Origin: Octopus vulgaris
Lineage: Eukaryota
Direction of reading: 5' to 3'
Assembly (NCBI GenBank): GCA_951406725.2
Contig: OX597839.1
Span: 32,922,001-32,986,000, forward strand
Length of the DNA: 64,000 nt
The notes beneath the pieces were generated by a model that saw only the letters and a list, made by a program, of their open reading frames with translations, was not told the DNA's origin and made no database searches. This document shows, in pieces, positions 30,076-58,908 of the stretch (its first letter is position 1; each line of letters begins with the position of its first letter). Both the position numbers and the translations under genes were made by a program.

Positions 30076-30274
30076 GTTAATCCAAACATGAAAACACAAA
30101 GAGAAAGCACAACAGGAGTACGTGGAACAAATATAGTATTATTGGACGCTAAGGAAAGAAGGAGGGTTCAACGTTTCGAGTGGAGAGCTCTTCGTCGGAA
30201 ACATAGGAAAAGGAAAGGGCCCAGGAAGGGAAGACGGAGGAAAAAAATCGCCAACGGTACCCACGCGGTCACAT
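30076..30274 (-). mobile_element. ~200-bp hammerhead-containing element in (TA)n
   Basis: Reverse complement of 36550-36756; HHR 30166-30202. Confidence 0.8.
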
Positions 30275-30317
30275 TTATCATATATATATATATATATATG
30301 ATGATAATAATAATAAT

Positions 30318-30685
30318 AATATTAGGGAGTATAACTCCAAACTTACAAGGAAAAATTCAATTTAGCATTAAATCAAATTTCACAATATAAATATATAATA
30401 TATATAAATTAGAGAAAAACCATTATTATGCAATTCAAACAATGATAGACATAAACCAAATCATAAAGAATAAATAAAATATATAATAAAACATATAACT
30501 GGATCACAAAAAGTAGAAAATGTTAAATGGAAAGCCTACTATAATATTCATTTTTGTACTTTTTGTGATCTAGTTATATGTTTTAAAATATATTTTATTT
30601 TTTATTTATGATTTGGTTTATGTCTATCATTGTTTGAATTACATAATAGTGGTTTTTCTCCAATTTATATATATTACATATTTTG
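30318..30685. mobile_element. AT-rich fold-back insertion (same family as 58985-59350)
   Basis: Arms ~30390-30522 and ~30549-30684 are inverted; unique leader gggagtataactccaaacttaca. Confidence 0.75.
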
Positions 30686-30701
30686 GTAGGTTATAGTGAT
30701 A

Positions 30702-31040
30702 CAGGTACCAAACCTCTTATCTGGCAACCTTGGGGCCAGAGGTGGTCCAGATTTCAGGATTTTCCAGATTTCTGGACACATGCTAAATATATACTGAAAA
30801 TATAAAATAAAGAACGAAAAGTAAAGAACAAAATTGTATAAGATATGCAAATTAATACATTTCTAAAGCTGGGTCTGTTTGCTCTTGCATCATGTGATGC
30901 ATATGCCATGGAGACCAAAATGAAGAGGCCACATGGTGAACTACTACAGCCCATGAAATTCAAAGCTAACCAGTTTCAAAAATAACTGGATTTCTGGTAA
31001 TTCCAGATTTCTGGATTCCGGATAAGAGGTTCCGTACCTG
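30702..31040. mobile_element. Tc1/mariner-type MITE
   Basis: TA-caggtaccaaacctcttatc...gataagaggttccgtacctg-TA. Confidence 0.85.
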
Positions 31041-31147
31041 TACTAATAACCTAAAACTCAATGTCCATATGCTTCGGAATAAAGTGTTAAGCAGTAGTAA
31101 ATAATTAGAATGAAAAAGGAATAAACAATTTTGTTATGAACTTCATC

Positions 31148-31228
31148 AGCTTACAGCTGTTTCTGCTGCTTGGTGTAATGCACTCATAGTTAAATACTTG
31201 TGTATCACCTTACAGCTTCATCAGAGCT
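31148..31228 (-). ncRNA. Type-I hammerhead ribozyme motif, canonical core, long stem II
   Basis: Minus strand AGCT-CTGATGA-A-GCTG..GGTG...CACC..CAGC-A-GAAAC-AGCT-GTA-AGCT. Confidence 0.75.
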
Positions 31229-31259
31229 TCAAAAACGAAGTGCAATTTTATTTGGGAAG

Positions 31260-31306
<47 letters not shown>

Positions 31307-31308
<2 letters not shown>

Positions 31309-32103
31309 GCATCAGATGTGGTGTGCAAGAGAGACGACTGCACTGGTATGGTCATGTGGTGAGAATGGATGAGGATAGCTGTGTGAAAAAGTGCCGCACC
31401 CTAGCGGTCGAGGGAACCTGTGGAAGAGGTAGACCCAGGAAGACCTGGGATGAGGTGGTGAGACACGACCTTCGAACATTAGGCCTCACCGAGGCAATGA
31501 CTAATGACCGAGACCTTTGGAAATATACTGTGCCAGGGGTGTAACCAGCCCTCTTATGCATACCTTTCCTTTATTGGACACTGCTTTCGAAGACCTGTTG
31601 AGGCAAGTGAAATCGAAATCGAATTTGGTGACAGCACTGCATGACTGGCATCCGAGCTAGTGGAGTGCGAAGAGCACCATCCAAGTGTGATTGTTGCCAG
31701 GGCCGCTGACAGGCTCCCATGCCAGTGGCACATAAAAAGCACCATTCAAGTGTGATCGTTACCAGCGTCGCCTTACTGGCACTTGTGCTGGTGGCACTTG
31801 AAAAACAACATTCGAGCAAGGTCGTTGCCAGTGCCGCTGGACTGGCTCCTGTGCAGGTGGCACATAAAAAGCACCATTTGAGCGTGGCTGTTGCCAGTAC
31901 TGCCTGTCTGGCTCTCGTGCCGGTGGCACGTAAAAGCACCCACTACACTCTCGGAGTGGTTGGCATTAGGAAGGGCATCTAGCTGTAGAAACTTTGCCAG
32001 ATCAGATTGGAGCCTGGTGCAGCCATCTGGTTTGCCAGTCCTCAGTCAAACCGTCCAACCCAGGCCAGCATGGAAAGCGGACGTTAAACGATGATGATGA
32101 TGA
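31307..32103 (+). mobile_element. 5'-truncated RTE-clade LINE
   Basis: QERRLHWYGHVVRMDEDSCVKKCRTLAVEGTCGRGRPRKTWDEVV..DL (RTE ORF C-terminus), then a 3' UTR with repeated gtgccggtggcac hairpins and (GAT)n tail. Confidence 0.9.
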
Positions 32104-32649
32104 TATATATATATGTATATATATATATATCTTGAATTTGTTTATGTAATAACAGGCAAATTGGATATGTGAGAATAACAATTGAAAGTCTGTCTGAAGT
32201 GACATGAAAGGCATCGTCATTCATGGTATATGGGTGAATACGTCACTAATGGAAATAGGTGGAGCTATTGTTGAGGAAAGTACTATTTACCTGTTTAAAG
32301 GTGGTTCTGGGTAAAGTGTGAAAATAACCCTAACAGGTGAAATACCATAAAAAGACACCTAATTTGCGCACCTGTTCAATTTACGCAGGTGGTTTTCAGG
32401 ATAAAATTTGTTATAAGCTTTTTCTCATGTAAAATTCGCTCCCAAAAGTTTTCAGAATTGCCAATATGGCCAGGGGCTAAAGGTTTTCAATTCAGTTGTG
32501 TTTAGCATAAATTCTGAATGTGCAAATAAAGCTGCTCCAATATGCCGGCCACAGTCTAATGATGGCAACCGGTGAACCAGATTGTTGGGGTTGCATGGAG
32601 CTGTACTGATATAATGGAGGATAAACATAATAATAATAATAATAACAAT

Positions 32650-32650
32650 A

Positions 32651-32700
<50 letters not shown>

Positions 32701-32760
32701 TACATATACATACATGTATATATATGTATATATATGCATGTATGTATGTATATATATATG

Positions 32761-32791
<31 letters not shown>

Positions 32792-32792
32792 G

Positions 32793-32823
<31 letters not shown>

Positions 32824-33030
32824 GTATGTATATATATATGTATATATATATATGTATATATATATATATGTATGTATGTATATATATATGTATGTATATA
32901 TATATGTATATATATATATGTATATATATATATATGCATGTATGTATGTATATATATATGTATGTATATATATATGTATATATATATATGTATATATATA
33001 TATATGCATGTATGTATGTATATATATATG

Positions 33031-33062
<32 letters not shown>

Positions 33063-33082
33063 TGCATGTATGTATGTATATA

Positions 33083-33126
<44 letters not shown>

Positions 33127-33162
33127 TGTATGTATATATATGCATGTATGTATATATATATG

Positions 33163-33193
<31 letters not shown>

Positions 33194-33218
33194 GCATGTA
33201 TGTATGTATATATATATG

Positions 33219-33250
<32 letters not shown>

Positions 33251-33312
33251 TGCATGTATGTATGTATATATATATGTATATATATATGCATGTATGTATG
33301 TATATATATATG

Positions 33313-33344
<32 letters not shown>

Positions 33345-33370
33345 TGCATGTATGTATGTATATATATATG

Positions 33371-33402
<32 letters not shown>

Positions 33403-33630
33403 TATGCATGTATGTATGTATATATATATGTATATATATATATGCATGTATATATATATGTATATATATATATATGCATGTATGTATGTATATATATATG
33501 TATATATATATATATATATATGCATGTATGTATGTATATATATATGTATATATATATATATATGCATGTATGTATGTATATATATATGTATATATATATA
33601 TATGCATGTATGTATGTATATATATATAGA
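32650..33630. repeat. (TA)n/(TATG)n compound microsatellite with recurring tgcatgtatgtatg
   Basis: Direct reading. Confidence 0.97.
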
Positions 33631-35139
33631 TAGATTTGTGTGTTTGTGTATTGTCAGTAAGTCATAAATCCAAAACAGAAGGACCCATGTAGAATAGGTC
33701 ATTCAGCCATTGTGGTGTGAAGAAACAGCATAAGGCTAAACACTTTATGGGACTTGAAACCCAGGGTGACCCCACAGGCTGGCCATAATTATCTTCATCT
33801 AATTATGTGTTTTTATATATGTATGTAGATATGGATAATTATTTGTGTAGGAACAAAGAAATAAAAAGAATAAGGTGAAAACACCAAAACATGAAACACC
33901 CCACCCAACTCAGTAACTATTGTTCATGCATGACTAAACCACCCAACCCAGTAAACTATTGTTATGCATGACTAAACACCCTACAAACTGACATATACAC
34001 ACACACAAATGTCAAACAATAGAAGTTGTATATAATGGAGATGAATGTGAAAATGGAGGATCATCCTAATATGAAGTAGAGTGAAAGAGGTGAATGGCAA
34101 CAGGTGATTGATGAGGTGAGATTATAGGGTTTGATAAAAAGGGCTCTGAGGAACCTACTGGAAGATTAACTGAGATATTTATTTCTTTATTGCCCACAAG
34201 GGGGCTAAACACAGAGGGGTCAAACAAGGACAGACAAAGGGATTAAGTCGATTATATTGACTCCAGTGCATAACTGGTACTTATTTTAATCAACCCCGAA
34301 AAGGATGAAAGGCAAAATCAACCTTGGCGGAATTTGAACTCGGAACATAGCGGCAGATAAAATAGCTATTTCTTTACTACCCATAAGGGGCTAAACACAG
34401 AGGGGACGAACAAGGAAAGACAAATGGATTAAGTTGATTACATCAACCCCAGTGCGTAACGGGTACTTATTTTTCAAAGTGGCGAGCTGGCAGAAACGTT
34501 AGCACGTCGGGCGAAATTCGTATTTCGTCTGCCGTTACGTTGTGAGTTCAAATTCCGCCGAGGTCGACTTTGCCTTTCATCCTTTCGGGGTCGATAAATT
34601 AAGTACCAGTTACGCACTGGGGTCAATGTAATCGACTTAATACCCATGTCTGTCCTTGTTTGTCTCCTCTGTGTTTAGCCCCTTGTGGGTAGTAAAGAAA
34701 TAGGTACTTATTTAATCAAACCCGAAAGGATGAAAGGCAAAGTGGAATTTGAACTCTGAACATAGCAGCAGATGAAATACCACTTAGCATTTCACCAGGT
34801 GTGCTAACGATTCTACCAGCTCGCCACCTTATTGATCTATCGGAGACCAGTTAATTAATCATATACTTTAAAATGTTGACAATGAAAAAGGAACTGAAAT
34901 ATCATCATCATCATCATCATCATCATCAATGAGTGCATCATTTTTTCCCAGAAGGCTCAGAATGCTCCCAACGGAAGTGAATAGAATTTCTTGTCTCTCT
35001 GGTCCAGTGATTCATGTGTTCGTTGATGTGACCCAAGGGTCTGGTCACTAATATTCATTGTGAGATGGCATGAAACCCTGAGTAACTCAGTGGATTAACA
35101 GGATTTAATAAACTTACAAAGCTGTGTTACTCTCTCTCC

Positions 35140-35174
<35 letters not shown>

Positions 35175-35179
35175 TATAC

Positions 35180-35402
35180 TCTTACTCTTTTACTTGTTTC
35201 AGTCATTTGACTGTGGCCATGCTGGAGCACCGCCTTTAGTCGATCAAATCGACCCCGGGACTTATTCTTTGTAAGCCCAGTACTTATTCTATCGGTCTCT
35301 TTTGCCAAACCGCTAAGTGACGGCGACGTAAACACACCAACATTGGTTGTCAAGCAATGCTAGGGGGACAAACACAGACACACAAACCCACAAACACACA
35401 CA

Positions 35403-35446
<44 letters not shown>

Positions 35447-35622
35447 CATATATATATACGACAGGCTTCTTTCAGTTTTCGTCTACCAAATCCACTCACA
35501 AGGCATTGGTTGGCCTGGGGCTATAGTAGAAGACACTTGCCCAAGATGCCATGCAGTGGGACTGAACCCGGAATCATGTGGTTGGTTAGCAAGCTTCTTA
35601 CCACACAGCCACTCCTGCGCCT
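35180..35622 (-). mobile_element. SINE family A
   Basis: Family homology. Confidence 0.9.
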
Positions 35623-35629
35623 ATATATA

Positions 35630-36420
35630 TGTGATCAGCATTGCCTTACTGGCACATGAAAAACAACATTTGAGCGAGGTCCTTGCCAAGTGCCACTGGA
35701 GTGCTCCTGTGCAGGTGGCACATAAAAACAACATTTGAGCGAGGCCCTTGCCAAGTGCCACTGGAGTGCTCCTGTGCAGGTGGCACATAAAAAAACAACA
35801 TTTGAGCGAGGCCCTTGCCAAGTGCCACTGGAGTGCTCCTGTGCAGGTGGCACATAAAAAAACAACATTTGAGCGAGGCCCTTGCCAAGTGCCACTGGAG
35901 TGCTCCTGTGCAGGTGGCACATAAAAAAACAACATTTGAGCGAGGTCCTTGCCAAGTGCCACTGGAGTGCTCCTGTGCAGGTGGCACATAAAAACAACAT
36001 TTGAGCGAGGCCCTTGCCAAGTGCCACTGGAGTGCTCCTGTGCAGGTGGCACATAAAAAAACAACATTTGAGCGAGGCCCTTGCCAAGTGCCACTGGAGT
36101 GCTCCTGTGCAGGTGGCACATAAAAAAACAACATTTGAGCGAGGCCCTTGCCAAGTGCCACTGGAGTGCTCCTGTGCAGGTGGCACATAAAAAAAAACCC
36201 ATTTGAGCATGGCCGTCGCCAGAACTGCTTGACTGACTCTCGTGCCAGTGGAACATAAAAGCACCCGTACACTCTGAGTGGTTGGTGTTAGGAAGGGCAT
36301 CCAGCTGTAGAGACTCTGCCAGATCAGACTGGAGTCTGGTGCAGCCTTGTGGCTCACCAGTCCTCAGCCAAACCATCCAACTCATGCTAGCATGGAAAGC
36401 GGACATTAAACGATGATGAT
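35630..36420 (+). mobile_element. RTE 3' UTR with ~9 tandem 60-bp units
   Basis: Unit catttgagcgaggcccttgccaagtgccactggagtgctcctgtgcaggtggcacataaaaaaacaa, then the standard RTE tail. Confidence 0.9.
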
Positions 36421-36439
36421 ATATATATATATATGTATG

Positions 36440-36473
<34 letters not shown>

Positions 36474-36549
36474 TGCATGTATATATATACACACACACAT
36501 ATATATAATATATATTTATATATACACACACACATGTATGTATATTTAT

Positions 36550-36756
36550 ATGTGACTGCGTGTGTACCATTGGTGATTTTTTTTTCCTCCGTCTTCCCTT
36601 CTCTGGATCTTTCCTTCTCCTATGTTTCCGACGAAGAGCTCCGCTCGAAACGTTAAACCCTCCTTCTTTCCTTCTTTCCTGAGCGTCCAATAATACTATA
36701 TTTGTTCCACGTCCTTGGGTTGTTGTGTTTTTTTGTGCCTTCTTGTTTGGATTAAC
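36550..36756 (+). mobile_element. ~200-bp hammerhead-containing element in (TA)n
   Basis: HHR 36624-36658: GTTT-CCGACGA-A-GAGC(TCC)GCTC-GAAACGTT-AAAC; TA tracts on both sides. Confidence 0.85.
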
Positions 36757-36973
36757 TATATATATATATATACACACACACACACGCATATATACATATA
36801 GAATATATATGTGCTTATAGATACTGAGAGATGCAGAAGGGACTTGGAAGGAGGTTGGGAGGTAGAGAAAGATATATATATATTAGCTACAGTGAGGTTT
36901 TGGTGGCTATCTTTTTCTTTAATCAGTGTAAGTCATTGGAGCATGACCACGACAGATAAAACATACATACATA

Positions 36974-37028
<55 letters not shown>

Positions 37029-37301
37029 TGATTAAGCATACACATACAGAATCAAACAAATAAATGCAGGTGGTTATTTGTGAAGCAGTGGACATCATGC
37101 TGGGCTTTTACTGGGTTTTCTGTTTTATTTGGCTCTGACCAAATACCTGGTCAGTTTAATTTTCGCCTGCCCCTCCTTCCATTGGGCATAAAATATTTAT
37201 GTGTATACACAGGTAGCTACTGTGCTTTGTCAATATATTGAATATAATGAGGAAACTGGACACACCCTGCAAGACCACTGACCATTGGTTAAATCCAATA
37301 A

Positions 37302-37334
<33 letters not shown>

Positions 37335-37369
37335 CATGTGTGTGTGTATATGCACAAAACATACAAACA

Positions 37370-38070
37370 GATGTATATATATATATGTATGTATATATAT
37401 ATGTGTATATGTGTGTGTATATATATGTGTGTGTATATATATATATGTATATACATATATGTATATACATATATATGTATATACATGTATATATATATGT
37501 ATATACATGTATATATATATGTATATACATGTATATATATATGTATATATATGTATATACATATATGTATATACATATATATGTATATACATGTATATAT
37601 ATATGTATATACATGTATATATATATGTATATACATGTATATATATATATGTATATACATGTAAATATATATGTATATACACGTATATATATATGTATAT
37701 ACACATATATATATATATGTATATACATGTGTATATATATATGTATATACATGTATATATATATGTATATACATGTGTATATATATATGTATATACATGT
37801 ATATATATATATGTATATACATGTAAATATATATTTATATACACGTATATATATATGTATATACACGTATATATATATGTATATACACGTATATATATAT
37901 GTATATACACATATATATATATATGTATATACATGTGTATATATATATGTATATACATGTATATATATATGTATATACATGTGTATATATATATGTATAT
38001 ACATGTATATATATATGTATATATATATATGTATATATATATATGTATATGTATATATATATATGTATAT

Positions 38071-38104
<34 letters not shown>

Positions 38105-38170
38105 ATACATATATCATCATCATCATCATATATATGGGTATATATATATATATGTATGTATGTATATATA
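37370..38170. repeat. (TA)n compound microsatellite with gtatatacat units
   Basis: Direct reading. Confidence 0.97.
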
Positions 38171-38517
38171 CATATTTGTTCAGAATGATGAAAGCGCATT
38201 TAAATTAAAGGGCTCAATTAACCGCCCCAATTACACTGATTGGCGATATGAGAGTTCGCATATTACGGTGGGACATCATGTTCATTTACCAGAAATTACA
38301 GAATGGATAGGTAGATAGATAGATAGAGATATGGATAGGTAGGAAAAAGATAGATAGATAGATATAGGTAGATATAAAACAGATAGGTATATTCACAGAC
38401 AGGTATAGTTAGAAATACAGATTGATAGATAGAAAGATAAAAGATTGCAGATGAAAGTAAAAAAAAAAGAAAAAAATTCATTAAAAAAAAATATATATAG
38501 ATATAAATATTACCCAC

Positions 38518-38634
38518 CTAATTTTATAATCCAATCCAACGGACCCGTATAAAGGATATTAAATCCAGTGAATCAGGATGAAATTAAAAAATTAACCAGA
38601 AAGATCAAATATCGTTATACTTATGATTATAAGG

Positions 38635-38665
<31 letters not shown>

Positions 38666-39035
38666 TTTTGTTTTAATATTAACCGTGTAATGTTCCTTTT
38701 CCGTCGATGTATTATTCTTCGTTCCCACGTTCTTCCTTATAAACTTATTTTTGGGGTTTTCTTTTTAAATCCGCCAATTTTTAGTCCGAATTGAATTTTG
38801 AAATATCTTCCCGGGTTTTACTGTTTCTTTTTTTTTTGTCGTTCTGATTGTGTTTTGTTAATGTTTATTTTAATTCTTTATGCTGTTGTTGTTGTTGTTA
38901 AAAGTGACTTAAGTGTTTTTGTGTAGTGTTAAGTCCAACTCCTCTGGTGCTGCGCTGTTTGTGTGGTAGAGGTAGGCTTGTCCTCTCTGTTCCACTCACT
39001 CGCTCGACTGCTGGCCCAGCACCACAAGCACACTA
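38518..39035 (-). other. Candidate non-coding first exon (5' UTR) of the PTB gene
   Basis: Unique, non-repeat, CpG-retaining, A-rich on minus strand. Ends in a donor AG|GTGGGT (38517-38512); Inr-like CTAGTG near 39031-39036. Same strand as the orphan acceptor at 2576. Confidence 0.5.
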
Positions 39036-39452
39036 GTTTTCTGTGTGTGTTGTGTGTGTGTTTAGTGAATGCAGGTGAATAAGAAGAGAGAGAGGTGTGA
39101 CAGCAGTATAGGTGTGTGCTGGAAGGACAGGTAGAGTGATTACAGGTGAGTGATTGAGAAATGGGACAATCAGAAGAGAATGTCTCAGGTGGATAGGAGG
39201 AAGGTGATGGGAAGAGTTATTATGGAGAGGAAGTGAGAGGGGGAGAAAATGCAAGGGAAAGACAAAGAAAGGGAGGCACATAGACAGGTAGATAGATAGA
39301 TAGGTGGATAGCTACAAGCAGGTATATAAATAGGTATATACAGATTGGTATAAAGATAAAGATATCAATATAAATAGGTATTTATAGATAAATATAGATA
39401 TATATGTAAATATGTGTGTGTATGCATTATTTCTCTCACTCTCTTTCTCTCC

Positions 39453-39531
<79 letters not shown>

Positions 39532-39683
39532 TAGATAGATAGATAGATAGATATATACATACACACTCAGCCGAAATTGTGAAGATGATCCGGTTCTTGA
39601 CCGATGATTGAGGGCTTTGAATGTCCCGTCCGTGTTTTTTGTGTCGTCTTCTAAATGTTTCACGCTCTTGTCCCAGTTTGTAA

Positions 39684-39730
<47 letters not shown>

Positions 39731-39759
39731 TTTTAATTAATTTTACCCTTTATTATTAT

Positions 39760-40141
39760 GAGTGGCTGTGTGGTAAGAAGCTTGCTTACCAACCACATGG
39801 TTCCGGGTTCAGTCCTACTGCGTGGCACCTTGGGCAAGTGTCTTCTACTATAGCCTCGGGCCGACCAAAACCTTGTGAGTGGATTTGGTAGACAGAAACT
39901 GAAAGAAGCCCGTCGTATATAAGTATACATATATATATGTATATGTGTGTATATGTTTGTGTGTCTGTGTTTGTCCGCCCAACATCGCTTGACAACCGAT
40001 GGTGGTGTGTTTATGTCCCTGTAACTTAGCAGTTCGGCAAAAGAGACCGATAGAATAAGTACTAGGCTTACAAAGAATAAGTCCTGGGGTTGATTTGCTC
40101 GATGAAAGGCGGTGCTCCAGCACCACCGAAACAAGTAAAAG
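39760..40141 (+). mobile_element. SINE family A
   Basis: Family homology. Confidence 0.88.
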
Positions 40142-40532
40142 ATATATATATATATATGTGTGTGTATATATATATGAATATATATGTATTTGTGTATATA
40201 TATATGAATATATATGTATATATATATATGTATATGTATGTATGTATATATATATATATGTATGTGTATATGTATATATGTATGTGTATATATATGCATG
40301 TATACATATGTATGTATGTATGTATATAAATATATTTGTATATAAGAATTTTTTGCGTAATAAGATAAAAAAACCCAAGGCTGTGTAGATATTAGAGCAT
40401 TTATAGATAGAAGGTCTTACAGTTGTTTCTTGGATATTAATTAATAATATCCTTTCATCGGAGAAGGTGTGAGAGGAAAATTAAGTTATAGTTAGTTTAG
40501 ACTGACTATGACTTAATTTTTCCTCTCACACC

Positions 40533-40588
40533 GTCTCCGATGAAGGGATATTATTAATTAATTAATATCCTCGAAACAGCTGTAAGAC
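40533..40588 (+). ncRNA. Type-I hammerhead ribozyme motif (U4C core)
   Basis: GTCT-CCGATGA-AG-GGATATTA...TAATATCC-TC-GAAAC-AGCT-GTA-AGAC. Confidence 0.78.
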
Positions 40589-40814
40589 CTATCTATAAAT
40601 TTTCTTTTTCTTTTCTTTTCTTCTTTTGCTTGTTTCAGTCATTTGACTGCGGCCATGCTGGAGCACTGCCTTTAGTCGAGCAAATCGACCCCGGGACTTA
40701 TTCTTTGTAAGCCCAGTACTTATTCTATCGGTCTCTTTTTGCCGAACTGCTAAGTGACGGGGGCGTAAACACACCAGCATCGGTTGTCAAGCAATGCTAG
40801 GGGGACAAACACAG

Positions 40815-40872
<58 letters not shown>

Positions 40873-40874
<2 letters not shown>

Positions 40875-41069
40875 TCCTGGGTTGAGTCGGGGTTAACCAC
40901 AGTAAATAAGGTACTCAATACATTGCAGAGTAAAGTAATTTATTTTATAGAAGGAGCTTCTACAGGACTAGAACTGTTTCATTCAGATGAAATCTTCAGG
41001 AAGCTTCTTGAAGATTTCATCTGAATGAAACAGTTCTAGTCCTGTAGAAGCTCCTTCTATAAAATAAAA
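40873..41069. mobile_element. Palindromic insertion in the (TA)n of a SINE, with a hammerhead-like core on each arm
   Basis: Near-perfect palindrome 40939-41068 centred on aagctt; minus strand CTGAAGA-TTTCATCTGAAT-GAAAC-AGTTCTA-GTC. Confidence 0.7.
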
Positions 41070-41783
41070 TATATATATATATATACATATATACGACAGG
41101 CTTCTTTCAGTTTCCGTCTACCAAATCCACTCACAAGGCTTTGGTCGGCCCGGGGCTATAGCAGAAGACACTTGCCCAAGGTGCCACGCAGTGGGACTGA
41201 ACCCGGAACCATGTGGTTGGTAAACAAGCTACTTACCACACAGCCACTCCTGTGCCTATAAATGCTCTAATATCTACACAGCCTTGGTTTTCTTATATCT
41301 TATTACGCAAAAAATTCTTATATCCTCACGCTGACATAGAACCAACATTGAACCCTTTATTCGTAATATTACTGAATCTGGAACTTAACTATGGTCTGTC
41401 TGCAGCACTTATTCAGCATTACCTGACACCTTTGGGTCTCAATGACACCATTATCTCTTATATATATGTATGTATATATATATTTGTGTGTGTGTGTGTT
41501 GTGAGAAGAGAATAGTAGTAGTAGTAATAGCGGTGGTAGTAAAGTAGCCAGAGGTTGATGAATGGGAAAGAATGAGGGTGGGGCGCGTGTGGGGAGGACG
41601 GAGGAGATGGATTGAAGTGGACCTGGAGGTGGGGGGGATAAGCCTGGGGTGACTTGAGAACTTGGCGGAGAGGGAGGGGATTAGAGAAGGGCTCAACTGA
41701 GGTTGAATAGTAGTCGTGGTGATGGTGGTGGTGGCGGCAGTGGTAGGAAGACTCAAGTCATTGGGTAGAAGAGGGGAGGAACC

Positions 41784-41822
<39 letters not shown>

Positions 41823-43699: not shown

Positions 43700-44043
43700 A
43701 AAGGGTAAAGACCCCCTTCGGTCATGAATGACCATGGGATTGCACCTAGAAAGTTACCCTCCTAGACACAAGTCCGGGCAAGGTTGTTTATGGAAGACCA
43801 GCAGTCGCCCATGCATACCAGCCTCCCCTCTCCACGCCACCAGTGTTGTCCAAGAGAAAGGCAAAGGGGCCAATACAGCTTGGCACCTGTGACGTCGCAA
43901 CTCATTTCTACAGCTGAGTGAACTGGAGCAACGTGAAATAAAGTGCCTTGCTCAAGAACACAACATGCAGCCCGGTCCGGGATTCGAGCTCACAACCTCA
44001 CGATCGTAAGCTCGACGCTCTAACCACTGAGCCATGCGCCTTC

Positions 44044-44046: not shown

Positions 44047-44107
<61 letters not shown>

Positions 44108-48136: not shown

Positions 48137-48183
<47 letters not shown>

Positions 48184-49739: not shown

Positions 49740-50142
49740 ATTTTGCTTGTTTCAGTCATTTGACTGCGGCCATGCTGGAGCACCGCCTTTCGTCGAGCAA
49801 ATCGACCCCGGGACTTACTCTTTGTAAGCCCAGTACTTATTCTATCGGTCTCTTTTGCCAAACCGCTAAGTGACGGGGGCGTAAACACACCAGCATCGGT
49901 TGTCAAGCAATGTTGGGGGGACAAACACAGACACACAAACACACACATACACACACACATATATATATATATACATATATACGACAGGCTTCTTTCAGTT
50001 TCCGTCTACCAAATCCACTCACAAGGCATTGGTCAGCCCGGGGCTATAGCAGAAGACACTTGCCCAAGATGCCACGCAGTGGGACTGAACCCGGAACCAT
50101 GTGGTTGGTTAGCAAGCTACTTACCACACAGCCACTCCTGTG

Positions 50143-50146
<4 letters not shown>
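49740..50146 (-). mobile_element. SINE family A
   Basis: Family homology. Confidence 0.9.
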
Positions 50147-50195
<49 letters not shown>

Positions 50196-50769
50196 TAAGC
50201 AACAAGGATATCCAGAGGTAATACAGCATAACCTCTGGATATCCTTGTTGCTTATTTTGTGCATATATATATATATATAGAATGCCCACTATGATAGTGG
50301 AGGATTGGTAAAGACCCTCACAAGTGCAACAACCAAGGACCAAGGGGTCTCCTCTTCATCAAGATCTGGTCCTTTATTTCAGAATTACAGAGTTCTTTTA
50401 TGTCAGTTCATTCAGGTTTGGGGGTCGATACAACCACTTTTCCTGTCTGATGAAAGGGATACAGGTCTGAATGAAGGATGGCTGGACAGACGGACGGACG
50501 GACGGATGAGCGGAGAGATGAATGGATAATAGTATTTATAGACGAGCAGAATAAAAGAATAATGGATTAGTAGATTGACATGCAGAATGTATCAGAAAAG
50601 TGATTGACTGAATGGTGTGTAATTGATTCAAAAGACAAAAGAACCAGGAAGGGGGGAAAAAGAAGGAAAACAATTAATAAGAGTGATAGGTGTGTGTGTA
50701 GATGTATGAATGTGTGTATATGCAATATATGTGTGTTTGTGTTTGTGTGTGCATAATATATCTATATCT

Positions 50770-50822
50770 GTATGGATGGATATATATATATATATATATA
50801 TATCTGGATGGATGGATGGATA

Positions 50823-50858
<36 letters not shown>

Positions 50859-51633
50859 TGTATATATGTATGTATGTATATATATATGTATGTATGTATA
50901 TATATATGTATGTATGTATATATATATGTATGTATGTATATATATATGTATGTATGTATATATATATATATGTATGTATATATATGTATATGTATGTATA
51001 TATATGTATATGTATGTATATATATGTATATATATGTATATGTATGTATATATATGTATATATATGTATGTATGTATATATATATGTATGTATGTATATA
51101 TATATGTATGTATATATATATGTATGTATGTATATATATATATGTATGTATGTATATATATATGTATGTATGTATATATATATATGTATGTATGTATATA
51201 TATGTATGTATGTATATATATATATATGTATGTATGTATATATATATATGTATGTATATATATATATGTATGTATGTATATATATATATGTATGTATGTA
51301 TATATATATATGTATGTATGTATATATATGTATGTATGTATATATATGTATGTATGTATGTATATATATGTATGTATGTATATATATATATGTATGTATA
51401 TATATATATGTATGTATGTGTATATATATGTATGTATGTATATATATATATGTATGTATGTGTATATATATGTATGTATGTATATATATATATGTATGTA
51501 TGTGTATATATATATATATGTATGTATGTATGTATATATATATATATATGTATGTATATATATGTATATATGTATGTATATATAAATATATGTATGTATA
51601 TATATACATACATATATGTATGTATATGTATGT
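50770..51633. repeat. (TATG)n/(TA)n compound microsatellite
   Basis: Direct reading. Confidence 0.97.
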
Positions 51634-52564
51634 ATTAGCTGAACGGATAATTATATTAATGAGTGCGCAACAGCAATTACTTCCTGAACAGCAGAAATAC
51701 GGCCACGCTATATAATGGGTTTTGAATGCAATATCCATTAGAAGAGTATGGTCAGTGTTTTGTTGGACATGTGAGCCACAGGAGTATGAATGAGAGGACA
51801 GACATGACAGAACAGAGACGTGGACGGATGGATGGATGGATAGACAGACGGATAGGAAGATAGCGAGATAGATGGATAGAAGGATAAACATAGATAGACT
51901 GACAGATAGAAGTCGGTCAACCATCAGAGGTGGCTTGAGTTCAACAGAAAAATTACGTGACAATATCCTGGAGCAGAGAAATCAAAAAATCTTGCCACCC
52001 AAACTGAGATTTGGCAAACTGTTCTGCTCTGAACCCTTATCGTGCATTTACCCCTCTTTTGTCGTTTGTCACCGAGCATAAGATATTTATTTCTTTACTG
52101 CCCTCAAGGGGCTAAACATAGAGGGGACAAACAAGGGCAGACAAAGGGATTAAGTCGATTACATCGACCCAGTGCGAAACTGGTACTTTATTTATCGACC
52201 CCGTGAGGATGAAAGGCAAAGTCGACCTCGACGGAATTTGAACTCAGAACGTAACAGCAGACGAAATACGGCTACGCATTTCGCCCGCCGTGCTAACGAT
52301 TCTGCCAGCTTGCCGCCTTTAAGATATTACCTGTTTGAGGTTCATGGTCTTGCAAACTGCACCACAGCTTGGTGATGGTTGGTGTTTGGAAGGGCATCCA
52401 GTCATAGAAATCCTGTCCATTGGTCCCTGTCGAATCCTCCAAACTATGTGAACTTAGAACATGAACTGCTTGAAGTGGTTGTGAAAACAAGGTTTTGGAT
52501 GCTCATGGGCCTTACCTCCAGTTTTGATCTCGCTAAAGAGGACCATCTTTGGGAGCTTTTTTTT

Positions 52565-52957
52565 TTTTTTTTTTTACTTGTTTCAGTCATTTGACTGCGG
52601 CCATGCTGGAGCACCACCTTTAGTCGAGCAAATCGACCCCGGGACTTATTCTTTTGTAAGCCCAGTACTTATTCTATCGTTCTCTTTTGCTGAACCGCTA
52701 AGTGACGGGGACGTAAACACACCAGCATCGGTTGTCAAGCAATGTTGGGGGGACAAACACAGACACACAAACATATATATATATACATATATACGACAGG
52801 CTTCTTTCAGTTTCCGTCTACCAAATCCACTCACAGGGCATTGGTCGGCCCAAAGCTATAGCAGAAGACACTTGCTCAAGATGCCACACAGTGGGACTGA
52901 ACCCGGAACCATGTGGTTGGTTAGCAAGCTACTTACCACACAGCCACTCCTACGCCT
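52565..52957 (-). mobile_element. SINE family A
   Basis: Family homology. Confidence 0.9.
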
Positions 52958-53795
52958 TTATTATATTTGGTTATATTTCTCCAGCATTTGCTATTTTACC
53001 CTCGTTCTGGTCTAACGACCATCCATGTTTTGTTTCCATTCGGTTTCGTTGTATGTCTCCACTGTCCTTTTTTTCTTCCCAACTTTGACCCTCCATAAAT
53101 CCCAAATTTTATTTTGGTATTTGTGGGAGCAACTGCCTTCGAAGACTCATATTATCATTCAATACTCGAAATAAGGGAGTAGCCAGGCAGCCGACAACTG
53201 ATGAAGGGACGTTTTTTGTGTTACTTGTCCTGTTTTCCATTTTTGTGTATTCAACTCATTTGTTTTCATATTTCGTGTTGTTTACTATTTGTGATGTCCT
53301 GTACCCATATATGCATATATCTGTTTCTTTACTACCCACAAGGGGCTACACACTGAGGGGATAGACAAACGGATTAAGTCGATTATATCGACCCCAGTGC
53401 GTAACTGGTAACTTAATTTATCGACCCTGAAAGGATGAAAGGCAAAGTTGACCTCGACGGAATTTGAACTCAGAATGTAACGGCAGACGAAATATGGCTA
53501 TGCATTTCGCCCGACGTGCTAACGTTTCTGCCAGCTTGCCGCCTATATCATCATCATCATCGTTGCTTAATGTCCGTTTTCCATGCTGGCATGGGTTGGA
53601 CGGTTTGATTGGTATTCGAGTACTATGTTTTCCACCTTGTTTCACATTTATGTGCTTACTCTGGTATGTATGTTTGTATATCCCTCTCTCTTTCTTTCGG
53701 AGAGGCACTGAACAGCTATACGCACACATACACACACGGCAGTAACTTCCACCTACCGAATTCAATCACAAAGCTCCGGTTGGCTCGGGGCTATA

Positions 53796-53843
<48 letters not shown>

Positions 53844-53844
53844 A

Positions 53845-54042
53845 ATGTGACCTCGTGTGCACCGTTGGCGATTTTTTTTCCTCTGTCTTCCCTTCTCTGG
53901 ATCTTTCCTTTTCCTATGTTTCCGATGAAGAGCTCCGCTCGAAACGTTAAACCCTCCTTCTTTCCTGAGCGTCCAATAATACTATATTTGTTCTACGTCC
54001 TCGCGGTATTGTGTCTTTTTGTGCTTTCTTGTTTGGATTAAC
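53845..54042 (+). mobile_element. ~200-bp hammerhead-containing element in (TA)n
   Basis: HHR 53918-53952: GTTT-CCGATGA-A-GAGC(TCC)GCTC-GAAACGTT-AAAC; TA flanks. Confidence 0.85.
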
Positions 54043-54651
54043 TATATATATATATATATATATATTGATAGATAAACAAATTAAATAAATTAATAAATAA
54101 ATAAACAAGGCAAACATAAAAATAGGAATTGCTGTTGATAGAAGGAAATTTGATTAGGGATTTTTTTCTTCTTTTTATATCAATTTTATATGTTCTGAAG
54201 AGTTTAACGAGAGATCGAGTGGTTCTTATCTGCTGCTCTTCATATTAGAACTTCAAACCAGTGTTAAAACACTCACACACATGCCCATACACACACATGT
54301 ACATACACATATGGGCAAGTGTAGATATATATACACACATACTAATGGAATTTACACACACATACAGACATGTATACACTTCATGCATGAAAGTGTAGAC
54401 ATGGTACAATACTTTACATACATATGTACACACTTGTGTCTAAACACACAAACACACACGCATGTGCACATATGCATTCATGCATACGTACACACACATG
54501 TACAGAAAATCGCACACACACACACACACACACACAATAGGAAATGAGCAAGCATTCAATGATTTACTGAAGAAATAGAGAAAAGGGAAAGAAATAGAAT
54601 AAATAAATAGATAAGGAAATGAATGAATGAAATGGAAAGAAACATACGTTA

Positions 54652-55047
54652 TAGGTGCAGGAGTGGCTGTGTGGTAAGTAGCTTGCTTACCAACCACATG
54701 GTTCCGGGTTCAGTCCCACTGCGTGGCATCTTGAGCAAGTGTCTTCTGCTATAGCCTTGGGCCGACCAAAGCCTTGTGAGTGGATTTGGTAGACGGAAAC
54801 TGAAAGAAGCCCATCGTATATATGTATGTGTATATGTTTGTGTGTCTGTGTTTGTCCCCCTAGCATTGCTTGACAACCGATGCTGGTGTGTTTATGTCCC
54901 CGTCACTTAGCGGTTCGGCAAAAAGAGACCGATAGAATAAGTACTGGGCTTACAAAGAATAAATCCCGGGGTCGAGTTGCTCAACTAAAGGCGGTGCTCC
55001 AGCATGGCCACAGTCAAATGACTGAAACAAGTAAAAGAGTAAAGAGT
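54652..55047 (+). mobile_element. SINE family A
   Basis: Family homology. Confidence 0.9.
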
Positions 55048-55564
55048 ATAGAAGGACAGAGTGAATGAAATTGAAGAAAGAGCAAAAGTAAAAGAATTAA
55101 TAAATAAATAATGAAATGAATGAACGAATGAAATGAAAGGAAGGAAATGTAAAAAGAAAGACAGAATGAATGAAAAGAAGGAAATAGAAAAATACACGAA
55201 TAAAGAGAAAAGGAAGGAAAAAGAATAGAAAGAACAAGTGATAGGAGGGGGCAGAAAAAGAAAGAAAGTTTGAACAAGGAAGGAAAATACAGAAACAATG
55301 GAATAAAGAAAGAGAGTGAATGAGTGAATGAATGAAAGGATGAATGGACAAATAATCCTTTGTATTATAGGCACAAGGTCTGAAATTTAGGGGGAGTGGG
55401 GCTAGCTGATTATTTTGACCCCCAGGGCTCAGCTGGTACTTATTTCATTGACCCCTGAAAGGATAAAAGGTTAAGTCAGCCTCCGTGGAATTTGAACTCA
55501 AAATGTAAAGACAGACGAAGGGCTGTTAAGCATTTTGCCCTGTGTGCTAACAGTTCTGCCAGCT

Positions 55565-55948
55565 TAGATGTCTTGCAAACGCCTTGCACATGCAAGTGCT
55601 ACCAGTTAAAAGCTCCGTATACCGGAAACTAGCAAGTGTATGGGGTCATCAGGAGAGAATGCGCACGGTTTCGGGGCCTACCTCTCGACAGCATCAATGC
55701 GCACCGGCCCCCCTCACTGATATGAGGCCCCGCTTGCTAGATCAGCTGGTTATGAAGAACTCAATATACTTCTAGCCATCGCTCATCATCTCTTTTTAAC
55801 CAAATCCAGTGGCTAGCCTTCTCCACTGTAGATTGGATATCAGTCATGGTGGTATTGACTTTATGATGAGTTAAGCCTATCGATAACAACAGTCGTCTCA
55901 CGCTGTGTCCAACAAATCCTCTACATCTGACTTCGATAGGAAAATTTC
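55565..55948 (-). mobile_element. Hero/NeSL-like RLE retrotransposon 3' fragment
   Basis: FPIEVRCRGFVGHSVRRLL.SIG...VEKASHWIWLKR matches the PVEVGCRGF...ASxWLWLKR C-terminus. Confidence 0.75.
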
Positions 55949-56400
55949 CAGACAAAGTGTTAGAGCACCAAAGGCCGGATATAGTAACCTTTAAGAGGGA
56001 CAAACAAGAGGGCCTAATAATCGACGTGGCAGTGCCTAATAATCAACATATTATCATGAAAGAAAGAGGGAGACCTGAGAATTGAGATTGCTAAGATGTG
56101 GCAGCTACGAGAGTCAGACGTAAAGGTTATCCCTGTTGTCATCAGAGCATTGGGTTCAATACCACCCAACCTGAAGAAAAAACATCTGGAAACCTTAGAA
56201 ATACCCTACAATCTAGATGTATTGCAAAAGTTGGCATTACATGGAACTGCATGCACATTGCGTAAAGTAGTGTCTGTCTGAGGTCCTTGGTGTGACTTGA
56301 CAAAACAGTACAACCCCCCCCTCCCGGCAGACACAATATCTTCAATCAACAACATCATGATATTGGATACTGTGTGATGTCTATAATGATGATGATGATA
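55949..56400 (+). mobile_element. R4/Dong-type RLE fragment (divergent family)
   Basis: RPDIV..IIDVAVP...LRIEIAKMW....VIPVVIRALG..LQKLALHGTACTLRKV. Confidence 0.75.
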
Positions 56401-56412
56401 ATAATAATAATA

Positions 56413-57040
56413 AAAGGTCACAGAAAATGAGAAGGCAACCATACTCTGGGATATGCCAATGCACACAGATAGAGAAATTAAGGCCAATAGGCCGGATATA
56501 GTTGTCAGAGATCATGAAGAAAAAAAAATGTTTTCTAATCGACATATCAATACCAGCAGATGACAACGTTTCTCTAAAAGAAATGGAGAAACTTTCAAAA
56601 TACAAAGACCTGGAAATAGAGATAACTCGAATGTGGAATCTAAAAACAGAAACAATTCCTATCATAGTAAGCGCATTAGGAATGATAAAAAAATATTCAG
56701 ACAAATACATAACAAAAACACCAGGACTTACAAACACATATAACATACAGAAAATAGCACTACTGGGTACTGCACATTTCCTACGTAAAACACTTTCAAT
56801 ACAGTGAAAATAAGAGCACCACAACAAACTACAGCACATACCCAAGGTACACAGAGCTTTGCTTGGTAGTGCAGTGAAAGCAAGTGGTGAAAATTGACTA
56901 CTGAATAATAATAATAATAATAATATTAATAATGAAAATAGCACTACTAGGAACCGCACACATCCTATGTAAAACACTTTCAATACAGTGAAAATAAGAA
57001 CACCACAACAAACTACAGCACATGCCCAAGGTACACAGAG
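56413..57040 (+). mobile_element. R4/Dong-type RLE fragment in (TAA)n, plus a short duplicated 3' end
   Basis: ILWDMPMHTDREIKANRPDIVV..FLIDISIPADDNVSLKEMEKLSKYKDLEIEITRMW...QKIALLGTAHFLRKTL; TAA flanks. Confidence 0.88.
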
Positions 57041-57824
57041 GTACAAAGAGAGGATGAGAGAGTGAGAGAGGAAGGAGGGAAGGAGAAGGATTAAAAGAGG
57101 AAACGGTTAAAATGGGTTTTTTTTTTAACCATTATCACTGCCACCTTCAAGACCACCACTGACACTGTCACTATGGCAACCACATACCCCATCATTATCA
57201 TCGCCACCAACACTACCATCACCACCACCACCACTATCAGCATCACCATCGCCACCAACACCGCCATCACTGCTACCATCACCACCACCATCATCAACAC
57301 AGTCACTAGCGCCACCACCATAACCCTAACATCCAGGTAACCCCTATTTCCCCCCTCCCATTAAATAAACAGGAGTCCCAAGTCAACACTTCAGTTAAGC
57401 CTATATTATTTCTTGAACACAATATGATCCCTTTAAGTAGGGAAAAGGGGAGAAGAAAGTAGGACCTGTCCATCCCTAGCCTCCCCCCCACTGTCCCACC
57501 TCTCCTTAAATCCACTCCTCTGCTTAGGGGTGCTTTAGGGGTGATGAGTGCAGGGAGGGGTGGGGTGGGATTTTAACAACCTGTTCTGTTGAATGTATAG
57601 GACTTGATTAACCAGACAGGTTATTGCTGTGTGTAGGGGTGTGAGACGGGGTATGAGGGTAGATAGATAGGAAGCCCTGTATAAATATATTTACCTAAGC
57701 AAATATATATATTATCACATATATTATCATATATATGTGTGTATATGTATATATATATATATATATTATCACATATATAAATCGTATGTATGTATGTATG
57801 TGTGTTATATACAGTATATATGAT

Positions 57825-58155
57825 AATATTTAAAAAATAGGATAAAATCTTCATAAGAATTTATCAAGTAGTTAGCGTGTAAAACCTCATAAGAGAAAAA
57901 ATCTGTAAATTTTTTCACTTGAAAATATTTATTTATATTATATAGAGGGCATTATTACACATAAATGCCGCACGCTAGGAGGGACTTCTAAAGTCATAAC
58001 TACCAAATATAAACAGAATGTAGCTAAATTCTGTTTTTAAATGACTCGCTTCGAGAATTGCATTCGGTACGATTTGTTTATATTTGGTAGTTATGACTTT
58101 AAAAGTCCCTCCTAGCGTGCGGCATTTATGTGTAATAATGCCCTCTATATAATAT
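57825..58155. mobile_element. Fold-back insertion in TA-rich sequence
   Basis: ~80-bp inverted arms (~57937-58018 / ~58072-58153). Confidence 0.75.
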
Positions 58156-58676
58156 ATATGATAATATGTGGTTGTATGTATATATATATATATCGTCATC
58201 ATTGTTTAACGTACGCTTTCCATGCTGGCATGTGTTGGACAATTTTGACTGAGGGCTGGCAAACCAGATGGCCGCACCAGGCTCCAATCTTGATCTGGCA
58301 GAGTTTCTACAGCTGGATGCCCTTCCTAACGCCAACCACTCCGAGAGTGTAGTGGGTGCTTTTATGTGCCACCAGCACAGGGGCCAGTCAGGCGGTACTG
58401 TCAACGACCTCGCTCGAATGTTTTTTCACGTGCCAGTAAGGTGACGCTGGTAACGATCACACTGGAATAGTGTCTTTTACATGCCACCGGTGCTCAAGCC
58501 AGTTAGCCGCTCTGGCAACGATCATGCTCAGATGGTAATCTTAGCACCCTACTAGCACAGGGTAATGATCACATTCAAATGGTACCTTTTATGTGCCACT
58601 CGCACGGAAGCCAGTTGGAGAATTCACAAAAAAACAAAAGACGAAGACAGGTGGTGATAAACAACAAATAAATTAT

Positions 58677-58725
<49 letters not shown>

Positions 58726-58727
<2 letters not shown>

Positions 58728-58908
58728 TAATCCAAACAAGAAAACACAGAAAAAAAGAAAAAAACACAGCAACGCAGGACGTGGAACAATTAAAGTATTA
58801 TTGACGCTCAGGAAAGAAGGAAAGAAGGAGGGTTTAACGTTTTGAGCGGAGCTCTTCGTCGGAAACAAGGAGAAGGAAAGATCCCAAGGAGGGAAGACAG
58901 AGGAGACA
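58726..58908 (-). mobile_element. ~200-bp hammerhead element, decayed copy
   Basis: HHR 58832-58866 with G12A. Confidence 0.75.

What the first reader, a model, noticed from the sequence alone, without database searches (positions are those of the whole stretch)
30076..58908. A ~200-bp non-coding, (TA)n-homing ribozyme element (four copies)
Seen: copies at 30076-30274(-), 36550-36756(+), 53845-54042(+) and 58726-58908(-). All four end cttgtttggattaac-like directly into (TA)n, and the three complete copies start atgtgac. There is no ORF, TIR, poly-A or tRNA head. The central HHR has a loop-less palindromic stem III (GAAACGTT) that could only fold as a dimer. Inference: a solo-pLTR/retrozyme-like non-autonomous element mobilised by a Penelope RT/GIY-YIG that cuts TA microsatellites.
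Basis: partly seen in the sequence, partly recalled or inferred. Interest (0 to 1): 0.75.

Follow-up and report, generated by a model that had tools for sequence, protein, structure and literature searches.

The report
Octopus TA-homing mini Penelope ribozyme element
A very abundant 200-base repeat in an octopus genome sits in TA microsatellites and carries a minimal hammerhead-ribozyme motif, and is most likely a non-coding passenger copied around by a Penelope-type retrotransposon: a new family of an already described kind.

Summary
Four copies (86-92% identical) end at the same base and run into (TA)n. There is no ORF, TIR or tRNA head, and a type I minimal hammerhead with a loop-less ACGT helix III lies in the middle. 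The host is an Octopus. Corrections: copies 1 and 4 share about 380 bp of upstream flank and are probably one duplicated insertion. All four copies carry a U4C core change, and copy 4 also has G12A. No tandem array was listed, only single-locus head-to-tail pairs spaced by TA. The hammerhead is not better conserved than the rest. Every trait singled out is published for Penelope-like elements: palindromic dimer-type minimal hammerheads, mostly solitary copies, (TA)n targeting (including in Octopus), non-autonomous derivatives. Best reading: a SINE-like solo pseudo-LTR mobilised in trans by a TA-targeting Penelope-type RT/endonuclease. The partner, transcription and cleavage were not shown. New member of a known kind.

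The parts
30076..30274 (-). Copy 1, 199 bp, full length; helix II weakened (3 bp, 7-nt loop)
36550..36756 (+). Copy 2, 207 bp, full length; carries an 8-bp internal duplication shared with copy 4
53845..54042 (+). Copy 3, 198 bp, full length; reference for the read lay
58726..58908 (-). Copy 4, 183 bp; lacks the first ~30 bases; G12A in the core (58843), predicted inactive
36624..36658 (+). Type I minimal hammerhead of copy 2: helix I 36624-27/36655-58, core 36628-34 with U4C, bulged A 36635, helix II 36636-39/36643-46, GAA 36647-49, loop-less palindromic helix III 36650-53, predicted cut after 36654
   Evidence: sequence, descriptor scan, consensus in PMC4209133 Fig. S3
53918..53952 (+). Minimal hammerhead of copy 3; predicted cut after 53948, 94 nt before the 3' end
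30166..30202 (-). Minimal hammerhead of copy 1
58832..58866 (-). Damaged hammerhead of copy 4
30052..30075 (.). (TA)n directly after the 3' end of copy 1; a second run at 30280-30299 lies on its 5' side
36757..36772 (.). (TA)n directly after the 3' end of copy 2
54043..54065 (.). (TA)n directly after the 3' end of copy 3; 5' run at 53797-53836
58695..58723 (.). (TA)n 2 nt after the 3' end of copy 4; 5' run at 58938-58964
58909..58937 (-). 29 bases unrelated to the family head, between the TA run and copy 4; no 13-mer of it occurs elsewhere in the window
30300..30683 (-). AT-rich fold-back plus (ATT)n upstream of copy 1, shared with copy 4 (315 of 363 aligned bases, 86.8%)
58965..59340 (-). The same fold-back flank upstream of copy 4

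Best explanation
This is a very abundant, dispersed, 200-bp non-coding octopus repeat with a minimal hammerhead motif and a fixed 3' end in (TA)n, most likely a solo pseudo-LTR of a Penelope-like element (PLE) that is copied in trans, SINE-fashion, by a TA-targeting PLE reverse transcriptase/GIY-YIG endonuclease. Shown: the repeat, its ends, its TA flanks, the hammerhead fold, very high abundance, and the lack of listed tandem arrays. Inferred steps: (1) short master copies are transcribed from about the 5' end; (2) the RNA mostly stays uncut, because a monomer cannot close helix III and about half the family carries the activity-lowering U4C; (3) the partner's endonuclease nicks a (TA)n array; (4) the RT starts at a fixed internal site about 95-110 nt after the hammerhead cut site, which makes the sharp 3' end, and copies to the RNA's 5' end, which makes a 5' end clustered within about 10 nt; (5) the copy splits the TA array, so no target duplication can be read. 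The hammerhead is then mostly inherited baggage, or part of the RT-binding region, rather than a required cutter. By hammerhead type the partner is more likely Neptune/Poseidon-like than Hydra-like.
For: Motif fits the PLE minimal-hammerhead consensus (U-rich leader, bulge after A9, G10.1-C11.1, palindromic 15.2/16.2); by eye the closest of the 56 listed examples is an Acropora Neptune pLTR. That paper says most such motifs are single, probably from truncated PLEs. Geometry: cut site to 3' end is 94, 102, 94 and 110 nt. In the Anolis PLE the cut is at +26 and RT starts at +111-118 of an ORF that begins in the hammerhead, i.e. 85-92 nt, and hammerhead mutants still insert. (TA)n targeting is reported for Naiad and for nearly all Hydra families, with Hydra-1_Obim and Naiad_Obim/Ovul in Octopus, and a microsatellite bias is cited for Neptune. 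Host gene is 96% identical to an Octopus sinensis protein. In 4 public runs 18,195, 19,316, 5,281 and 6,643 contigs lie on copy 3. No variant of 3% or more is listed from 54030 to 54060 (2 rows hidden), and 49-85% of the depth continues 4-11 nt into the TA run. The best-supported 5' loose ends converge on a short CATTCA-like lead-in preceded by heterogeneous AT/TA-rich sequence (agreement 0.46-0.55). At least two other hammerhead-bearing, TA-flanked PLE-type families occur in the same window.
Against: No autonomous partner found: 0 RT or GIY-YIG hits among the 150 longest of 253 ORF segments; no longer protein matches the element's open frame (weak); 0 of 5 internal motifs occur in the Craig et al. 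consensus files. The genome could not be searched. 648 loose-end rows were hidden and could hold a conserved upstream extension. Transcription and cleavage are not shown. The 5' flank is less strictly TA in 2 of 4 runs and in copy 2. Only 3 insertions in the window look independent.
Confidence: 0.62

Rival explanations
1. The copies are 5'-truncated 3' ends of an autonomous TA-targeting PLE with a preferred truncation point, not a separately propagating family.
For: PLE insertions are mostly 5'-truncated and leave single hammerheads. Copy 4 lacks the head. Joint rows re-enter the element at varied places (53846-54016), as truncated neighbours would.
Against: 3 of 4 window copies start at the same 7-mer. 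In all 4 runs the best-supported 5' loose ends fall at 53837-53843 and go on into heterogeneous AT-rich sequence rather than one conserved extension.
Confidence: 0.17
2. A true retrozyme: TA-spaced head-to-tail pairs, made when copies land in each other's TA run, are cut by the dimeric hammerhead and circularised. The circle, which contains (TA)n, is reverse-transcribed by a PLE RT and primes on nicked TA arrays.
For: Tail-(TA)n-head joints exist at single-locus depth; at least one shows the element's own head in the same orientation (table 5c). The canonical U4 makes up 34-53% of depth in 4 of 4 runs. The 3 common changes in the hammerhead (U4/C4, N7, a G-C to G-U in helix I) all keep the fold, and 0 of 12 invariant core positions vary at 10% or more in two runs. 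Monomer-rich retrozyme families are reported.
Against: No high-depth direct tail-to-head joint and no terminal redundancy listed. The core result is not significant (0 of 12 against 10 of 163, p=1) and the hammerhead varies at more sites overall (11 of 35 against 25 of 163, p=0.03; 6 of the 11 are CpG transitions). The active dimer scores -5.7 kcal/mol against about -22 for a competing dimer (the model ignores core tertiary contacts). U4C lowers activity in vitro. 8 of 9 tested Xenopus dimers did not cleave.
Confidence: 0.12
3. A SINE-like element of PLE ancestry now mobilised by a microsatellite-targeting LINE (for example Dong/R4 or Tx1 types), with (TA)n as a slippage tail.
For: Dong-R4, RTE, CR1 and Tx1 LINEs are active in O. 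vulgaris. The 3' TA junction is tighter than the 5' one.
Against: TA lies on both sides in 3 of 4 copies. No Pol III promoter. The cut-site-to-end distance matches PLE internal initiation. No similarity to the LINE-like fragments in the window.
Confidence: 0.07
4. A TA-inserting DNA element (MITE or Helitron derivative), or a chance hammerhead look-alike.
For: TA is the Tc1/mariner target (general knowledge). Rfam gives no hammerhead hit, and the whole RNA folds no better than shuffles (z +1.6).
Against: No inverted ends. Descriptor hits 5 against 0 in 40 shuffles. Position-by-position fit to the published minimal consensus.
Confidence: 0.02

Closest known systems
Minimal hammerheads (min-HHR) in pLTRs of metazoan Penelope-like elements (Cervera & De la Pena 2014, PMC4209133)
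   Same: Type I fold, short helix I, bulge after A9, G10.1-C11.1, loop-less palindromic C-G helix III, GUU cut site, U-rich leader; mostly solitary genomic copies; dimer-dependent, low activity. Closest listed example by eye: Acropora digitifera Neptune.
   Different: U4C in 4 of 4 window copies and about half the family (none of the 56 listed examples has it); fixed 5' and 3' ends; crude abundance of about 10^5 against thousands reported there; no parent ORF identified.
Hydra-clade PLEs, including Hydra-1_Obim; Naiad; non-autonomous Chlamys elements (Craig et al. 2021, PMC8557442)
   Same: (TA)n targeting, no readable target duplication, hammerhead about 80-200 nt from a fixed 3' end (Hydra), presence in Octopus, existence of non-autonomous PLE derivatives.
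   Different: Hydra hammerheads have a 3-4-bp helix III with a short loop; Naiads lack canonical hammerheads; no shared internal motif with their consensus sequences; this element has no ORF.
Non-LTR retrozymes (Cervera & de la Pena 2020, PMC7229834; Li, Clavereau & Pollet 2026, bioRxiv 10.64898/2026.07.22.740005)
   Same: Non-coding, 200-bp unit, type I hammerhead, proposed PLE mobilisation and pLTR origin, dispersed monomers reported.
   Different: Defined by tandem units and circular RNA; here no array is seen, the motif is minimal rather than canonical, and copies are strictly microsatellite-associated.
Poseidon_Ac of Anolis (Frangieh et al. 2024, PMC11167929)
   Same: Hammerhead about 90 nt upstream of the fixed 3' end; AT-rich targets; provides the internal-initiation mechanism proposed here.
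   Different: Autonomous, ORF begins in the hammerhead, prefers ATT; in this family position 7 is C in 86-97% of depth, so that ATG is mostly absent.

Membership tests
PLE minimal hammerhead (min-HHR) | Core CUGANGA ... GAAA ... UH | tested here: inconclusive
   All other core positions present in 3 of 4 copies, but U4 is C in 4 of 4; canonical U4 is 34-53% of family depth in 4 runs
PLE minimal hammerhead (min-HHR) | Unpaired base between A9 and G10.1; G10.1-C11.1 pair | tested here: met
   4 of 4 copies
PLE minimal hammerhead (min-HHR) | Loop-less or palindromic helix III | tested here: met
   ACGT in 4 of 4 copies
PLE minimal hammerhead (min-HHR) | Self-cleavage as a dimer or with protein | not testable with these tools
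   Only a nearest-neighbour estimate, unfavourable to the active dimer
PLE pseudo-LTR / non-autonomous PLE | Sequence shared with the end of an autonomous RT+GIY-YIG element of the same genome | tested here: inconclusive
   None in the window, in the Craig consensus files or by protein search; genome not held
PLE pseudo-LTR / non-autonomous PLE | Fixed 3' end about 80-130 nt after the hammerhead | tested here: met
   94-110 nt from the cut site; family-wide 3' conservation
PLE pseudo-LTR / non-autonomous PLE | Partial tandem or inverted 5'-truncated partner copies | tested here: inconclusive
   0 of 4 window copies; rare single-locus TA-spaced joints; a fold-back of unrelated sequence lies 5' of copies 1 and 4
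PLE pseudo-LTR / non-autonomous PLE | Insertion bias for microsatellites, (TA)n | tested here: met
   empty sites not seen
Non-LTR retrozyme | At least two consecutive tandem units with hammerheads | tested here: not met
   No array in the window; no high-depth tail-to-head joint listed in 4 runs (some rows hidden, contigs drop rare forms)
Non-LTR retrozyme | Expressed as linear and circular monomer RNA | not testable with these tools
   No listed holder is on record as RNA
Hydra-clade PLE derivative | Hammerhead with 3-4-bp helix III and short loop | tested here: not met
   Compared with File S2 of PMC8557442
tRNA/5S SINE | Pol III A and B boxes or small-RNA head | tested here: not met
MITE | Terminal inverted repeats | tested here: not met

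The most novel reading that the evidence does not exclude
A self-renewing microsatellite retrozyme: copies home into each other's (TA)n runs and so rebuild TA-spaced dimers, the only state in which the loop-less hammerhead can cut. The released circle carries its own target repeat and re-primes on TA arrays, so target choice itself switches the ribozyme on, at about 10^5 copies per octopus genome.
Probability: 0.12. Interest if true: 0.62.

Novelty: new member of a known kind. Interest (0 to 1): 0.3.

Why it matters
It is a clean, very high-copy example of a SINE-like parasite of Penelope-type elements with both ends defined. At a crude 10^5 copies it would be on the order of 0.5-1% of an octopus genome and may be filed as unknown or SINE in repeat libraries. 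With two core forms (U4 and C4) at similar abundance, it is a natural test of an open question: whether the hammerhead of PLEs is needed for mobility or merely rides along. It does not change the known picture of PLEs unless dimer cleavage and circles are shown.

Tried and rejected
Whole-genome search: no genome held. Rfam on the window gave only microsatellite-driven miRNA hits among the 150 rows shown; on copy 2, nothing meaningful. A degenerate hammerhead pattern found 0 matches in metagenome, viral and prokaryote contigs, as expected for an animal repeat. No RNA holder listed; run X8 is only guessed to be RNA and its variant profile resembles the DNA runs, so it was not used as evidence of transcription. 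Pfam on 150 of 253 ORF segments: no RT or GIY-YIG; one zf-RVT hit below cut-off at 4939-5337. Copy 3 has a frame open from an ATG inside the hammerhead to a stop at the 3' end (38 codons), recalling Poseidon_Ac; rejected as a conserved ORF because the ATG is ACG in 86-97% of family depth, indels break the frame in other copies, and a protein search found nothing. Hydra-1_Obim as partner: different hammerhead type and 3' end. Global RNA structure: none; monomer folds of the motif are no better than shuffles. The generic repeat finder was swamped by microsatellites. Earlier findings by sequence and by place: none. One paper on dimeric PLE hammerheads (Luense et al. 2017, recalled) is not held.
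Full report
Observation. A profile of them finds exactly four strong matches in the window, at 86.1-92.4% ungapped identity. All four end in TTTGGATTAAC and enter (TA)5+ after 0, 0, 0 and 2 bases. Only 2.9% of window positions are so placed. This genome is TA-rich, however: 20 of 93 other repeat segments also have a TA run within 25 nt of an end. Three of four copies start ATGTGAC; copy 4 has 29 unrelated bases in place of the head. There are no inverted ends, no tRNA gene or A/B box and no conserved frame. The host is an Octopus: the 517-codon frame at 973-2523 is 96% identical to an O. sinensis protein.

Independence of the copies. Copies 1 and 4 share about 380 bases of upstream flank: a fold-back followed by (ATT)n and (TA)n. 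Identity in that flank (315 of 363, 86.8%) equals identity in the element (143 of 166, 86.1%). The pair shares 5 diagnostic substitutions, against 1 and 3 for the other pairings (one gap column left out, and part of the alignment is ambiguous). They are probably one insertion duplicated or moved with its flank, which leaves three independent events.

The hammerhead. In copy 2 helix I is 36624-27/36655-58, the core 36628-34, a bulged A 36635, helix II four pairs with a 3-base loop, and helix III the loop-less palindrome ACGT, with the cut predicted after 36654. A descriptor found 5 motifs in the window (copies 1-3 and two other families) and none in 40 shuffles (U4C was allowed after the fact). 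Rfam misses it. It fits the minimal-hammerhead consensus of metazoan PLE pseudo-LTRs. That paper already describes the palindromic helix III, dimer dependence, low activity and mostly solitary copies (PMC4209133; main text parts 1-2 of 4 and supplement parts 1-2 of 3 read). By eye the closest of its 56 examples is an Acropora Neptune element. All four window copies carry U4C, a natural variant said to lower activity in vitro (PMC3088659, passages). Copy 4 also has G12A and copy 1 a weakened helix II. The active dimer scores -5.7 kcal/mol against about -22 for a competing dimer; the model ignores tertiary contacts, so this is weak evidence.

The family outside the window. The genome is not held. 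A run search listed 24 runs, 20 holding the element, from 10 studies and four coded organisms. I laid 4 of the 24 on copy 3 with short flanks, at 80% likeness: 18,195, 19,316, 5,281 and 6,643 contigs fit. Peak summed depth divided by the median depth of the eight listed pieces gives 0.94-1.17 x 10^5 in all four runs. The tool warns that this is not a copy number, but the window density (4 per 64 kb, in a 2.8-Gb genome as for O. vulgaris) gives the same order. The 3' end is fixed: no variant of 3% or more is listed from 54030 to 54060 (2 rows hidden), and 49-85% of depth continues 4-11 bases into the TA run. At the 5' end the best-supported loose ends (41-114 contigs per run at 53843) read CATTCA-like and then heterogeneous AT- or TA-rich sequence. 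No high-depth tail-to-head joint was listed. Joints from the TA run back into the element occur at single-locus depth (15-44), and at least one shows the element's own head in the same orientation: a TA-spaced pair.

Sites with a minor allele of 3% or more: 11 of 35 in the hammerhead against 25 of 163 elsewhere (p=0.03, in the wrong direction; 6 of the 11 are CpG transitions). At 10% or more in two runs: 3 of 35 against 10 of 163 (p=0.7), and 0 of 12 invariant core positions (p=1). The three common changes are U4/C4 (canonical U4 at 34-53%), N7 and a G-C to G-U in helix I, all compatible with the fold. So selection on the ribozyme is neither shown nor excluded. Copies decay neutrally after insertion, so only subfamily consensus sequences could show it.

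Mechanism. The cut site lies 94-110 nt before the 3' end. In the one PLE studied biochemically, the RT starts internally 85-92 nt after the hammerhead cut site, nicks AT-rich DNA, and inserts equally well with a dead ribozyme (PMC11167929, parts 1-2 of 4). (TA)n is the stated target of Naiads and of nearly all Hydra families, which carry hammerheads and include Hydra-1_Obim. A microsatellite bias is cited for Neptune, and non-autonomous Chlamys elements exist (PMC8557442; abstract, passages, sections 6 and 11, supplement parts 2, 52, 53 of 59 and term searches). Solo pLTRs and trans-mobilisation by pLTR sequence alone are described in Adineta (PMC3846280, passages). I therefore infer a short master transcript, left mostly uncut, bound by a PLE protein that nicks (TA)n and copies from a fixed internal start to the RNA's 5' end. 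The helix III type points to a Neptune/Poseidon-like partner rather than Hydra. None of these steps was observed. No partner was found in the window (150 of 253 ORF segments scanned), in the Craig consensus files or by protein search.

Relation to retrozymes. These are defined by tandem units and circular RNA (PMC7229834, passages and Discussion). A 2026 preprint derives them from pLTRs, reports monomer proportions from 0 to 1, and found cleavage in 1 of 9 tested dimers (main text parts 1-3 of 5; its supplements were not seen). The tandem criterion is not met here. The element works like a solo pLTR or monomeric derivative, but it is not filed as a retrozyme. The TA-spaced pairs keep a rolling-circle rival alive at low odds.

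Novelty. Ten literature searches (most results seen only as listings) showed no description of this octopus family. The O. vulgaris annotation reports 190 Penelope-like families covering 6.8% and 1,102 unknown families (PMC13282606, parts 1-2 of 3 and a supplement search). Its library, Repbase and Dfam could not be searched, so the family may already be catalogued. One supplementary file of PMC4209133 could not be searched. Two further papers gave nothing decisive (PMC6962438 and PMC12602865, passages). Earlier AI notes on other genomes reached similar readings and are not independent support. Verdict: a real, very abundant new member of a known kind. Its modest extras are two defined ends, the U4/C4 split and the scale.

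Noticed in passing
window 22342-22604 and 26688-26950 (+): Two copies (80% identical) of a ~265-bp repeat with a tRNA-like middle (A- and B-box-like stretches by eye; ARAGORN negative) followed by a minimal-hammerhead-like motif with canonical CTGATGA core: a possible tRNA-headed SINE with a Penelope-type tail. Helix III is imperfect in the first copy and G12 is changed in the second.
   Followed up: partly
window 8960-9115 (+), part repeated at 53610-53669: TA-flanked short element with a Hydra-type hammerhead (4-bp helix III, 1-base loop); helices I and III nearly match Hydra-2_aMil in File S2 of PMC8557442; core again U4C.
   Followed up: partly
window 40345-41318: Head-to-head inverted pair of another hammerhead element (U4C core, palindromic 8-base helix III), the classic inverted PLE arrangement, with a common repeat inserted in the right arm.
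   Followed up: partly
window 8968, 36628, 40537: Three unrelated hammerhead families in this window all carry U4C, which none of the 56 published minimal examples has; possibly an octopus-wide trend.
   Followed up: no
window 30300-30683 and 58965-59340 (-): AT-rich fold-back ending in (ATT)n, found twice, each time directly 5' of a copy in the same orientation: a duplicated or co-mobilised composite of about 700 bp.
   Followed up: partly
window 8520-8945 (-) and 6867-6935: Further CTGACGA...GAAA motifs, one between TA runs and one beside a short palindrome; they did not pass the full descriptor.
   Followed up: no
window 12760-12864, 40939-41068, 50192-50258, 57931-58159: Several short, nearly perfect palindromes in or next to TA-rich sequence, of unknown family.
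   Followed up: no
window 4051-4356 and 56502-56804 (+): Two similar LINE-like C-terminal fragments near (TAA)n runs; no Pfam hit; Dong/R4-like by recall only.
   Followed up: no
window 973-2523 (-): 517-codon host exon, 96% identical to an uncharacterised Octopus sinensis protein; a distant spider homologue is named PID domain-containing.
   Followed up: partly
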